Source: Paramecium tetraurelia (lineage: Eukaryota). Taken from it: DNA of 64,000 bases. Both the position numbers and the translations under genes were made by a program. The first letter of the stretch is position 1; each line of letters begins with the position of its first letter. Below the pieces are notes generated by a model, which ran no database searches, was not told the DNA's origin, and saw only the letters and a program-made list of their open reading frames with translations. The stretch lies in assembly GCA_000165425.1 (NCBI GenBank), contig CT868097.1, positions 378,867 through 442,866 of the forward strand, written 5' to 3'. This document shows, in pieces, positions 29,489 to 38,949 of this stretch.

Positions 29489-31041
29489 ATGATTTTAAGC
29501 GGATTGGTGATTACACTCAACACTTTAACTCAAAATTACCTCATTTTTAAAGATCAAATACTGAATCCTGAATTTTAAATAGGAAATTACGACGTCAACA
29601 GTTGTGGAGTACCCTAATTGCAACAAGTATATAATGACAATCCAAAATCAAATAACTTATTTATACAGGAGTTAGTGATTCGTGCAAATTAATAATTCAA
29701 GTTGGAATATTCGGTCGAGAATATTATTGATAATGATTTTGCTTTGAATTAAAGTATGAATTGACACAAATAACAATATTAGGTGGAATGATCAATTTAA
29801 CTCTCTCGAACGAATAAGTTATTTACATTACACATGAATGTCCAGAAGATCTCGAGAATTACAATTTCTGGGGTCTCATAAGAGTAGATCTATCAATAAA
29901 TGATGAATCGATGAAAATATACTATGAGAGTATATGTAGCAAACAATATGAACCAAAAAAGTACTTTACATCAACAACAGTTAAGATTTGATTTCAGCTA
30001 TTTGATAATAGTAATCTCAGGCGTTTTATTTGTGTTTCTAACATCCAGATTTGGTCACATTGCATCGTTATAGAAGGCAAATAAAAAGTTTCAAGGAGTT
30101 TTAATCAACTACTGGTATTTCATAGTGTTCATCTTTACGTTATTTGCCTTGGTGGGATTCAGTTATATAAATGTGGATGTGGAAGTCTACATTTTAGCTT
30201 GCATATCTTATTTATCTAACATATTTTTTTTGATAGACACTTGCTGCTTTTTAAAAATTCATTATTGGAACCATTTGCAAGATATTTTATTTTATATAAT
30301 AGGATGGTTTTTGGGTAGCATCCCAATGATCACTTTTTTTGTTTTTGGATTTAGTTGGATTGTCAATGATGTGATATTTGTACTCAATTTGGGAACTTTT
30401 TTTAAGCTCTTTAAGGTAAAATCATTCAAGGATTGCATAACTATTTATGTGCCATTTCTGTTATTTTATTGTCTTCTAAATTATGCAGTCTATCTCAAAT
30501 GGGAATATGGATATAAAGTATCCCTCATCCTTAATTTAACTTAATTCTTCTCTCTGCAAGCTCCAATGTTCAACTATATTCCAACAAGAAAATGTGCATT
30601 CATTGAAATTAATACTCTGTTCCTGCCTGGCTTAATGATAGCTTATACTGTGAGATACGCAAAAGCATCACAATCCTACGTTTATTTTATCATTTATTTT
30701 TTGGGTTTATTCTTGGGATTAATTGGTTGGCTGTCTATCACTTTCCTTAACAGTAAATATTAAATAACAAGGTATAGGATTATTCTAATAATATTAGTTT
30801 ATTATTCACAGTGATTCCCAGTTCAATACTAGCAGCAATACTCTGCTATTATAGAAATGAGTTATCAGTCTTTTACAAAGGATAATTTTATGATCAAATT
30901 CTTGAAGATCCATTTGTTGCATCTAAAAGTATTAAGGCTTCCCAATAAACGAATACTGAATTAATCAATCAGAGCAATCAGAGCAATCAAGAATTACCTG
31001 TTATAAACCCTGCATTATTTTCAGGATTGTATGAATTATGA
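29489..31041 (+). CDS. Signal-peptide-peptidase-like (A22B) multi-pass membrane protein, catalytic motifs absent
   Basis: Lumenal N-terminal domain, ~9 hydrophobic helices, WIVNDVI...KVKSFK, LFLPGLMIAYTVRY, C-terminal RNELSVFYKG. YD, GxGD and PAL motifs are replaced. Confidence 0.7.
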
Positions 31042-34861: not shown

Positions 34862-35502
34862 TTATTAACAGATAAATTATGTTTAATATTGATTTGTGAA
34901 AATGGAGAATAAGAAGGATAAAATAGATGAAGTATAATTTCAAAGAAATAACGACTTTATAATATGAAGTATGATTACAACAATATAAGAAGCTTATCTA
35001 AAAAGTAATATATCCGAAGGATATCTTTGTATCCATAATTTAATAATATTATTTGAGTATAGAAATATCAACTTTTTGAGTAATCATAGGAGCACTGTAA
35101 GGTGGGTATTCTGCTAATGTTTATTGTTGTGAATGAATTTTCAAAATATTCCTATGTAACTGAAATATCAAATAGAACTTATCTACCTTTTAAATTATCT
35201 ATCTTTAAACATAGTCACTACGATTCAGAAAATTTTTGATAAAATTAAGTTTGAAAAAATATCAGATATGAACTTCAATATATGCATGATACCATTAAAA
35301 AAATGGTTCATATTTATAATTAGTCATTCTATAAGATACTAATATAATGTGATTAGAAATATAGAAAAAATAATAAAAAACTATATTTATCCTACCAACT
35401 GATTTTATAAATGGATATCAGTTAGCATTCTTTTGGGTGATAAATATTAAAATAATCATTGCAATTAGATTTATAAAATATTTAAAAAATAATAAGAGTA
35501 AA

Positions 35503-36531
35503 TCAATACTAATGGCTGTTGTTATAAGCTTCGTATGTATTTCTTTGTAGTGCTAGAGAGTTATTTTCTGTTATTTAACATCTTGCACGAAAAATTACAA
35601 AGTTATCCTCATCATCCTGTTTTATTTTCATTAGATAAACATCTTCTCCCATTTCAAAGTTGTGATCTCGACTAGCTGGCACATGATCCGTTTCATCATT
35701 TACAAAATATATATTATCAGCATTTTCTGCTTTGACGATATTTAAAAAGTTTTAGCACTCCTTGTCTTTGCCGGTGCAATTATAAAATAGAGTTTAATTT
35801 TAAAAGGTATGAGCAGGAATAACAAAATTGGATTCATCACTAAATAATGCAGTTTGATTTCTTTAGGAGTATTTTGGAGCTAAAAAATCATACCTCTAAT
35901 TTGAGAGTTATGATAAAGCAATAGGTTTTGGGTTGTATTGATAATCATTATTTATTATTGACAATATACAAGTTATAGCTAAAAGAGAAAGTAATCCATA
36001 GTTCATCATCTTTGATTTTGTTATTACATTTGCTCTAGATATTTACTCTATTTCTTCTTCTCCTTGTACACTCTGAGTACTATTAATGGGTTAACTAAGA
36101 TTATTAATTATGATTTACTTGTTTTCTTCTAAATATCGGACTCTTAATCTTAAATGATTGTTTTCTATTTGTAATGATTCAATTTATTCATCTTTCTTCT
36201 TTAAAAGTATAGAGTAATTCTTGTTTTCTTGAACTAGATTGTCAAATACGATTTTTTTCTTATCTCTTGACAACTGAGCAGAATTTCTGTTTCTTAATTT
36301 TCTTAATTCTTCTTTGGACATCGTTTAAATGGCTTCAGCCTTCATTTTTTATTTTTTTTCGATTCTTTTTTTGAGTATCCTTTATTTCCTTTCCTCCTTG
36401 AACTTTTATTCCAAATCTTCAGTTGATTTGCTATGTTCTGGTGTAGGAAGATTATTAAAAATGTTGGATTGGAACAAAAGATCATCACATTCCATAGGTA
36501 TATCGTATTCTTCTGAATCAATAAAATTCAT
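35503..36531 (-). CDS. Membrane-tethered bZIP transcription factor (ATF6/CREB3/bZIP28-like architecture)
   Basis: Basic region RKLRNRNSAQLSRDKKK plus leucine zipper; TM YGLLSLLAITCILSII; C-terminal domain with NQT, NQT, NCT and NNS sequons; one intron. Confidence 0.85.
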
Positions 36532-36637
36532 TAATATACTGCTAATATCCGATTAATTATTTAAAAACAGAGAGAAAACATAATAATTTATTAATAAGTC
36601 TTATGACGTGGAGACAAGTAAATTAATTTTATAGTGT

Positions 36638-37208: not shown

Positions 37209-37237
37209 TTATTAAATTTAACTGAAACATATTAATT

Positions 37238-38949
37238 ATGGGAACCTCACAATCAACAATGATCTTGGGTTAGCCTCTTAAGTAAACCAAAGTGGGAACA
37301 CACTACCCTGGAGGCATTTTGGAGAGAAAAATATAGTTAACAGATGAGCAAGTCACCACACTGACCAATTTTATTAGACTCAAAGAGAAGAATATGAGAC
37401 AACCAATTTTCCTTAAAATTCATGCTCTATAGAAGGATGACTCTGGAATCTTTTGCAATTCCAATAATACAATTAAAATCTATACCCAATTTAGTGAGAT
37501 TGACTTATCAAATGAAATACGAAGACGACGTATCGCCTCTCAACATTTTACCAACCAAGAATTGGTGTACAACTTAAAACTATTAATTGAAGCCATGGCA
37601 ATCTATCAAAGCTTTAACATTCATTATAACTTGTCCTCAAACACTTTACTTTTTGATACAATCATCAAAATCATGGATCCATACATATTCGATCTTAAGT
37701 CACCCCAATTACCGCATTACAAAGATCAATCTGGTTCTGTATTTTCCTCATGGCCAATAGGTATTATCCTATTGGAAATGATCACACTCAATTTACAGAC
37801 AAACCTAGTTAACATGGATGGAACTTTAAACACCTACCTATTTAGCAATTTATTAGAATAAATTGATGAACCTTATCTGAAACAATGTCTACTCTACATC
37901 TTTGGAGGAATCCAAAGACCTGATTACATACAATTACGAGATGAATTAAATGGATAAATTATAAGATTACTGCCAGCCTTCCAAATGCAACCAGAAAATA
38001 TGCAGCATCCTACTAATTTCTCTATTCAAGAATAATCTAAATATTATGAAGCTATCTCTTAACAATAACAAATAATCAAAACACAATCTAACCAACCACT
38101 TCCACTCATTCCATTAGCTCAATCTAATTTAATTATCAATTCAAATAACATATCTTAAAAAAAAGAGAATATCACTCCCATTTCTACTACCAGATCTAAT
38201 AATTAAAGTGTCTTACAAGAAAAGATAGAATAAATCAGAGCCACCTATTTCAATCACAAAAATTAATAATAACCTTCATAAATGTATTTGTATCGCAAAA
38301 GTCCTGAAAAACAATCAGAAACCTCCTCTACAGGATCCGAAGATCTCAAATCCTTCTCCAACGGATTACAAATTGATCTATAATCGGATCCATTCTGCAG
38401 AGAGAGAGAATCTGATGTTAACACCTTATCTAAACAATTTAACTTCCAAAATGAAGAATATATCTGTGAAACCTATCTAGATGGCTCTATTTATGAAGGA
38501 TTTAAAAAGAATCAAAAAAAGAATGGATAAGGAAGTCTGTATTATAGTGATGGAGGCTTTTACATAGGATAATGGCAAAATGATGTGATGAATGGATATG
38601 GTTCATTATATTATCCTTCAGGCAAACTAGCATATCAAGGATGTTGGGTCAATGGAAAGTTTCAAGGCAAAGGAATGCTATTTAATGAAAATCCCAAAGA
38701 CTGTCAAGATATTAATTTTGAAGATTTTGACTCTATTAGTGATTGCTGGATCAGCTATTCAGGAGATTTTGTCCTTGATAAGAAATAGGGTAAAGGTGTA
38801 TTAATTTTCACCAATGGAGACAGGTATACTATAAAATTTATCTTAGATTTGAAGGCCAATTTAAAGATAATATGATCAATGGTCCAGGCACATTTAAATC
38901 AGGCAACAAAGTAATTTCTAGCATTTGGTCAAAAAATATGATTATGTGA
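37238..38949 (+). CDS. Predicted N-myristoylated pseudokinase with C-terminal MORN repeats
   Basis: MGTSQS start; kinase-like C-lobe IHYNLSSNTLLF/IKIMDP/WPIGIILLEMITL; MORN repeats YEGFKKNQKKNGQG, YIGQWQNDVMNGYG, YQGCWVNGKFQGKG. Confidence 0.85.

What the first reader, a model, noticed from the sequence alone, without database searches (positions are those of the whole stretch)
35503..36531. Membrane-tethered bZIP with ATF6-like lumenal motifs: candidate ciliate ER-stress sensor
Seen: cytosolic bZIP (RNRNSAQLSRDKKK plus zipper), one TM helix (~35955-36005) and a C-terminal domain with four N-glycosylation sequons, implying type II topology. Established: this is the architecture of metazoan ATF6/CREB3 and plant bZIP17/28, released by S1P/S2P cleavage. 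Inference: lumenal DNIYFVNDETDHVPA and FVIFRARCQITENN resemble my recollection of ATF6 DTFYVVSFRRDHLLLPA and VMMQIDCQVMDTR, suggesting deep homology rather than convergence. No canonical RxxL S1P site is evident after the TM, so activation may differ.
Basis: partly seen in the sequence, partly recalled or inferred. Interest (0 to 1): 0.75.

Follow-up and report, generated by a model that had tools for sequence, protein, structure and literature searches.

The report
Paramecium membrane-anchored ER-stress transcription factor
This Paramecium gene encodes a membrane-anchored transcription factor built like the animal ER-stress sensor ATF6, and its promoter shares a short DNA element with the cell's protein-folding and secretion genes, but common ancestry with ATF6 is only weakly supported and the usual activating proteases were not found.

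Summary
There are four paralogs in the genome and orthologs across Paramecium.

I fetched 13 full-length invertebrate ATF6 proteins and tested the claimed lumenal homology. It fails profile tests (hhalign P 0.15; HMM rank 82 of 1791), and the bZIP does not group with ATF6. Deep homology is possible, not shown. There is no S1P site (ATF6: 13 of 13), and no S1P or S2P was found in the genome, while SPP and rhomboids are present.

New result: a UPRE-identical 8-mer lies 80 nt upstream of this gene and two paralogs. A CACGT core marks BiP, GRP170, GRP94, Sec61 (8 of 8) and ERO1 (3 of 4), but no cytosolic chaperone scored (0 of 19; CCT 0 of 25). Best reading: an ATF6-like, possibly autoregulated ER-proteostasis factor released by another protease. 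A second, pan-ciliate membrane bZIP family is a rival driver.

The parts
36119..36531 (-). Exon 1: acidic N-terminus, Lys/Arg-rich helix, basic region and zipper
   Evidence: RNA depth on the minus-strand transcript in 3 of 3 runs, 5' end near 36540
36253..36312 (-). bZIP basic region (residues 74-93), canonical N-x7-R spacing
   Evidence: invariant core in 13 of 13; Pfam bZIP_1 E 7.2, family best 0.009; best PDB match 6iak_A, E 0.004
36130..36237 (-). Zipper, heptad positions L99 Y106 K113 L120 L127 L134 (irregular in heptads 2-3)
   Evidence: read from the sequence
36095..36118 (-). 24-nt spliceosomal intron (GT...AG), in frame and stop-free under the ciliate code
   Evidence: same position in 4 of 4 paralogs; missing from P0002; 4 loose-end reads at 36094
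35503..36094 (-). Exon 2: linker, transmembrane helix, C-terminal domain, TGA stop
35953..36009 (-). Single transmembrane helix preceded by Lys residues; type II orientation inferred
   Evidence: KD 1.98; 1.83-2.15 in 13 of 13
35506..35952 (-). Predicted lumenal domain, 149 aa: five sequons, three invariant Cys, no RxxL
35551..35799 (-). Conserved lumenal core (one helix then four strands in a low-confidence model); the region compared with ATF6
   Evidence: also conserved in fragment P0014 (45.5 bits)
36604..36611 (-). Promoter element CCACGTCA (reads TGACGTGG on the other strand, the UPRE consensus), 80 nt before the ATG and upstream of the transcript start
   Evidence: kept in paralogs L003 and L004, lost in L002; 115 copies genome-wide; UPRE consensus from passages of PMC8301375

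Best explanation
The gene encodes a type II membrane-tethered bZIP factor that works like ATF6 in a Paramecium ER-proteostasis regulon. SHOWN: the architecture, expression and splicing; conservation of the basic region, TM, Cys and two sequons across whole-genome duplications; and a CACGT-core element upstream of this gene, two paralogs and many ER folding, translocation and ERAD genes but not cytosolic chaperones. INFERRED: the tail lies in the ER lumen and reports folding, glycosylation or redox state; stress triggers cleavage at or near the TM by a protease other than S1P/S2P (most likely SPP-family or rhomboid, perhaps after ubiquitin-dependent trimming); the freed N-terminal half of about 165 aa enters the macronucleus, binds CACGT elements alone or with a second bZIP, and raises BiP, GRP94, PDIA6, ERO1, Sec61, Derlin, choline kinase and its own gene.
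For: Element at -80, -81 and -78 in 3 of 4 paralogs whose promoters otherwise align poorly; the 8-mer occurs only 115 times in 72 Mb. Hand tally, core within 200 nt of the start: ER HSP70-type 7 of 9 scored, GRP94 4 of 4 scored, versus cytosolic/mitochondrial HSP70 and HSP110 0 of 13, cytosolic HSP90 0 of 6, other bZIPs 0 of 31. Held-out families with automatic starts: Sec61 8 of 8, ERO1 3 of 4, CCT/Cpn60 0 of 25. Motif-first: of 15 AT-rich sites among 129 examined, one is a paralog of this gene, two are PDIA6-like and two are choline kinase genes. SPP-family (9 matches) and rhomboids (9 matches) are present; two IRE1-like genes are present. Fungi lacking S1P/S2P use a rhomboid and SPP to release SREBP (passages of PMC4863583). 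No bHLH match was found to explain the CACGTG variants (a soft blank).
Against: No binding, localisation or cleavage data. The element on this gene fits a target equally well as a driver. PDIs carry it in only 3 of 16 credible starts, paralog L002 lacks it, and about 8 of the 15 AT-rich sites have no identified ER gene. Paralogs are not independent counts, and some GRP94 contigs may be redundant. Sec61, GRP94, GRP170 and ERO1 carry ACGTG-type variants rather than CACGTCA, so more than one factor may be involved. The bZIP is the most divergent of 45 ciliate bZIPs scored (12-16 bits versus 30-43.5) and its zipper is irregular. Blanks for S1P/S2P are soft: the calreticulin search was also blank. 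The genome holds about 50 other bZIP loci over the Pfam cut-off.
Confidence: 0.55

Rival explanations
1. Target or modulator, not driver. The CACGT regulon is driven by another bZIP, most plausibly the second membrane-tethered family (L007, P0016-P0048, present in Tetrahymena and other ciliate-like sequences). The window gene is an induced downstream factor or feedback partner.
For: Family B has a canonical bZIP (Pfam E 2e-7 to 2e-10), a TM and a conserved three-strand lumenal motif set, and is far more widespread. Its last strand matches ATF6's Cys strand (z 3.3, 0 of 150 shuffles). Family B loci lack the element, as a constitutive sensor might. The window family was found only in Paramecium plus two fragments.
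Against: Family B versus ATF6: hhalign P 0.87 and HMM scores under 5 bits. The window family keeps its basic region, TM, Cys and sequons invariant, which fits an active sensor.
Confidence: 0.25
2. A membrane-tethered factor answering a different cue (lipid, osmotic, secretory-granule biogenesis), or acting uncleaved at the inner nuclear membrane, with the element reflecting general secretory capacity rather than unfolded-protein stress.
For: No cleavage site or known activating protease was found. The element also marks choline kinase genes and Sec61. CREB3-type factors have such roles (passages of PMC6616197).
Against: The marked set is dominated by classic UPR targets (BiP, GRP94, GRP170, PDIA6, ERO1, Derlin).
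Confidence: 0.14
3. bZIP60/XBP1-like: IRE1 splices the mRNA to remove the TM.
For: No S1P site; two IRE1-like TM-kinase-KEN genes exist. Plant bZIP60 loses its TM this way (passages of PMC3935401).
Against: No CNGCNG loop in the window or L003 coding sequence, and none between zipper and TM in any of the 4 paralogs. The only intron seen is GT-AG and in frame. The 149-aa tail is strongly conserved at the protein level.
Confidence: 0.04

Closest known systems
Metazoan ATF6
   Same: N-terminal bZIP, single TM, C-terminal tail with sequons and conserved Cys. The predicted order helix then strands in the core is compatible in two low-confidence models. The pairwise alignment with L076 runs colinearly through the whole core. 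The promoter element equals the UPRE/ERSE CCACG half-site.
   Different: Half the size (334 aa versus about 650-880 aa open frames for the near-complete ATF6 loci). No RxLL S1P site (ATF6 13 of 13 at 19-40 residues after the TM). Three lumenal Cys close together versus two far apart. The bZIP does not group with ATF6. Profile tests are not significant. No S1P/S2P was found in the genome.
CREB3/OASIS family
   Same: Type II TM-bZIP of similar size. The best PDB sequence match of the bZIP is 6iak_A, E 0.004 (the entry is labelled 'Uncharacterized protein', its identity as chicken CREB3 is recalled).
   Different: CREB3 proteins are cleaved by S1P and S2P (PMC6616197 passages). The one search match covered the bZIP only.
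Plant bZIP28/bZIP17
   Same: Same architecture and role; described as a functional homolog of ATF6 (PMC3935401, PMC6025073 passages).
   Different: Sequence comparison was not possible: no plant sequence was retrieved.
Fungal SREBP activation without S1P/S2P (Aspergillus SrbA, S. pombe Sre1)
   Same: Precedent for releasing a membrane-bound factor by rhomboid, SPP and Dsc ligase (PMC4863583 passages). Both protease families are present here.
   Different: bHLH with two TMs (recalled), senses sterol or oxygen; analogy only.

Membership tests
ATF6 | Cytosolic bZIP followed by a single TM (type II) | tested here: met
   orientation inferred from Lys before the TM and sequons after it
ATF6 | bZIP sequence groups with ATF6 | tested here: not met
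   Lowest ATF6-HMM scores of 45 ciliate bZIPs, own long branch; ATF6 query on the genome returns 4 other bZIP loci. Only 52 columns, long-branch caveat, no plant, CREB3 or XBP1 rows.
ATF6 | S1P site RxLL/RxxL shortly after the TM | tested here: not met
   0 of 13 family members versus 13 of 13 ATF6
ATF6 | Conserved lumenal core homologous to ATF6's | tested here: inconclusive
   For: best pair score 51, 0 of 1000 shuffles; mean score beaten by 1 of 433 decoys; 90 of 156 pairs in register. Against: hhalign P 0.15 and 0.32, HMM rank 82 of 1791, profile z 1.4, 46 of 433 after masking the motif residues.
ATF6 | Same lumenal fold | tested here: inconclusive
   Models at pLDDT 46 and 60; no solved ATF6 core by sequence; fold searches uninformative; coordinates not available for direct superposition
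ATF6 | S1P and S2P present in the organism | tested here: inconclusive
   No candidates for PF00082, PF23090, PF02163 or PF13398. Rhomboid and SPP searches worked, but intron-rich genes can be missed and calreticulin was also blank.
ATF6 | Targets carry CCACG/UPRE elements | tested here: inconclusive
   Element enriched on ER genes, but binding by this protein is not shown
ATF6 | ER-to-Golgi transport and cleavage on ER stress | not testable with these tools
   needs tagged protein in cells
bZIP17/bZIP28 (plant group B) | Homologous lumenal domain and group B bZIP | not tested
   attempt to retrieve long non-ciliate bZIPs returned none
bZIP60/XBP1/HAC1 | IRE1 twin stem-loop intron upstream of the TM | tested here: not met
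   no CNGCNG between zipper and TM in 4 of 4 paralogs; a ciliate IRE1 could use a different loop consensus
CREB3/OASIS | S1P site after the TM | tested here: not met

The most novel reading that the evidence does not exclude
The lumenal core is a true, highly diverged homolog of ATF6's conserved C-terminal domain. An ATF6-type sensor and its CACGT element would then predate the split of animals and alveolates, and ciliates would have kept this arm while losing S1P and S2P and rewiring release to SPP or rhomboid.
Probability: 0.25. Interest if true: 0.85.

Novelty: new variant of a known kind. Interest (0 to 1): 0.64.

Why it matters
Passages of a 2018 review (PMC6025073) place ATF6 in metazoans with functional homologs in plants and report no ortholog in Dictyostelium. 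Ten literature searches listed no paper describing a ciliate membrane-bound bZIP or a ciliate UPR promoter element; subscription papers and most supplements were not seen. This finding supplies a candidate ER-proteostasis element, a target list and two candidate sensor families in a species where RNAi and tagging are routine (own knowledge). That makes it testable whether an ATF6-type arm exists outside animals and plants, and how it is released without S1P/S2P.

Tried and rejected
Profile search of the lumenal domain against 1.84 billion representatives gave only P0010 and two fragments, with no ATF6 or plant protein at E up to 0.001.

Atlas searches of the family A tail (best score 0.80, a lead only) and the family B tail (nothing) were uninformative. 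No lumenal relatives were found in viral or prokaryote contigs. A bZIP-seeded search for long non-ciliate bZIPs found none, so plant bZIP17/28 is untested.

Fold searches of both low-confidence models gave no match at E up to 0.001 and best Z 4.2 and 2.3; they are not used as evidence.

hhalign's own best match pairs the Paramecium pre-core stretch with ATF6's post-core tail, which is non-colinear. It shows that a chance match of similar strength exists. Homology between families A and B was not detected (P 0.34; z 0.05).

IRE1 splicing was rejected. The Tetrahymena genome paper gave no usable protease passage.

A scripted tally with hand-set start codons was not run. L194, L196, L217, L222, L243, L255 and L256 are therefore unscored, and no background rate in AT-rich tiles or formal test was computed; counts come.

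No earlier scan findings were returned.

Full report
Gene. The window is AT-rich ciliate DNA. The ORF at 35503-36531 (minus strand, table 6) gives 342 residues by read-through. The closest database protein, P0002 from Paramecium tetraurelia, is 334 aa and lacks eight residues. These are a 24-nt GT-AG intron at 36095-36118, found at the same place in all four paralogs of the genome with lengths 24, 24, 26 and 25. RNA-seq from three runs of one study covers 35500-36540 on the expected strand. Four reads end at 36094 and continue with the letters from 36119. No joint row was listed, the reads being 58 nt.

Anatomy. The basic region has canonical N-x7-R spacing and is invariant at its core in 13 of 13 sequences. 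Pfam support is weak (E 7.2; family best 0.009). The best PDB match is a bZIP chain, 6iak_A, E 0.004. The zipper has Tyr and Lys at its second and third heptad positions. One TM follows (KD 1.98). The 149-aa tail has five sequons, two of them invariant, three invariant Cys and no RxxL. Relatives: 12 Paramecium proteins and two unnamed fragments.

Testing the ATF6 claim. A short pattern based on the motif quoted in the finding returned 41 metagenome loci, all ATF6-like in the surrounding sequence. Thirteen with bZIP, TM and complete tail were used; all 13 have an RxLL site 19-40 residues after the TM. L063 (intron read-through) and L064 (near copy of L055) were left out. Against: hhalign gives P 0.15 and 0.32 in another, non-colinear register; an ATF6-core HMM scores the window protein 1.2 bits, rank 82 of 1791 segments; profile-profile z is 1.4; masking the nine pattern residues drops P0002 to 46 of 433; P0013 scores like a decoy. 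The ATF6 set was selected on those residues, which favours the match. The bZIP scores lowest of 45 ciliate bZIPs on an ATF6 profile and sits on its own long branch. I put homology of the core at about one in three. Membership of ATF6 proper fails on the S1P site and the bZIP.

Release. The genome gave no candidates for subtilisin, the S1P fourth domain, M50 or M50B, while rhomboids and SPP-family proteases gave 9 matches each. Blanks are soft: genes are matched exon by exon, and calreticulin and bHLH searches were also blank. Passages of PMC4863583 describe SREBP release by rhomboid, SPP and Dsc ligase in fungi lacking S1P/S2P. SPP-family enzymes cut type II helices (own knowledge). Two IRE1-like genes exist, but no IRE1 loop lies between zipper and TM.

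The promoter element. CCACGTCA lies 80 nt before the ATG, upstream of the transcript start, and at -81 and -78 in two of three paralogs. On the other strand it reads TGACGTGG, the UPRE consensus, and it contains the CCACG half-site bound by ATF6 and XBP1 (passages of PMC8301375). It occurs 115 times in 72 Mb. Of 129 sites examined (99 of 115 for this 8-mer, 30 of 197 for the ACACGTCA variant), 15 are in AT-rich context. They include a paralog of this gene, two PDIA6-like genes and two choline kinase genes; about eight have no identified ER gene.

Gene-first tally, by hand, of CACGT on either strand within 200 nt of the start: signal-peptide HSP70s 7 of 9 scored (L194 and L196 unscored); GRP94 4 of 4 scored (L217 and L222 unscored, some contigs possibly redundant); PDIs 3 of 16 (three wrong starts dropped); cytosolic and mitochondrial HSP70/HSP110 0 of 13; cytosolic HSP90 0 of 6; other bZIP loci 0 of 31 with modelled starts. 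Families chosen afterwards as a held-out test: Sec61 alpha 8 of 8, ERO1 3 of 4, CCT/Cpn60 0 of 25, Derlin-type 2 of 5 as printed. Of those two, L298 is sound and L300 rests on a wrong start; L299's start was also wrong, but one search lists a site 356 nt upstream of its match. Paralogs share ancestry, so independent lineages number roughly ten on the ER side. The element is therefore a real mark of ER-proteostasis genes, and this gene belongs to that set. Which factor binds it is not shown.

A second family. L007 led to another TM-bZIP family with a canonical bZIP, found in Paramecium, Tetrahymena and unnamed sequences. Its tail ends in a Cys strand resembling ATF6's (z 3.3; hhalign P 0.87). 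It is not detectably related to the window tail and lacks the element. It is the main rival for the role of primary sensor.

Literature. I saw search listings for ten searches and passages only of PMC6025073, PMC13294678, PMC10428556, PMC6616197, PMC8301375, PMC11476214, PMC3935401 and PMC4863583, and one irrelevant passage of PMC1557398. PMC13294678 (membrane-bound transcription factor screen) has no mention of ciliates or protists in its main text. PMC11476214 invokes the UPR in P. duboscqui without naming ATF6, bZIP or IRE1. No supplements were read; genome-paper supplements could list these genes or ciliate proteases.

Verdict. A new variant of a known kind: it works like ATF6 with probability about 0.55, is not fileable as ATF6, and brings with it a candidate ciliate UPR element. 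Interest 0.64.

Noticed in passing
L007 (G000:C686:173543-176896); P0016-P0048: Second membrane-tethered bZIP family, present in Tetrahymena and many unnamed sequences, with a three-strand lumenal motif set ending in a Trp-Cys strand. L007 itself shows an apparent one-base frameshift near 2188 relative to P0016.
   Followed up: partly
L021, L031, L038 (also L017, L018): Further Paramecium bZIPs with the family B basic region; L031 and L038 have a TM and a short tail without the Cys domain.
   Followed up: partly
L008, L009: Two IRE1-like TM-kinase-KEN genes; the kinase catalytic motifs look degenerate on reading. No mRNA substrate was looked for beyond the TM-bZIPs.
   Followed up: partly
L189, L190, L207, L191, L204, L209, L210, L218-L220, L224, L292-L294, L298, L303-L310: CACGT-core element upstream of BiP, GRP170, GRP94, ERO1, Derlin and Sec61 genes: a candidate ciliate ER-proteostasis element in its own right.
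   Followed up: yes
L176, L269: A choline/ethanolamine kinase paralog pair keeps the element, one with CCACGTCA and one with ACACGTCA.
   Followed up: partly
L081: An SPP-family gene has the element core 12 nt before its modelled start, which would fit a role in the same regulon.
   Followed up: no
window 29915-31041 (+): Multi-TM gene resembling an SPP-like protein with altered catalytic motifs on reading; no Pfam hit at E 0.1 for the main frame.
   Followed up: partly
window 37226-38875 (+): Upstream neighbour: kinase-like N-terminus plus MORN repeats.
   Followed up: no
G000 whole genome: No match for S8 subtilisin, M50, calreticulin or bHLH families in six-frame searches; soft blanks that merit a proteome-level check.
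   Followed up: partly
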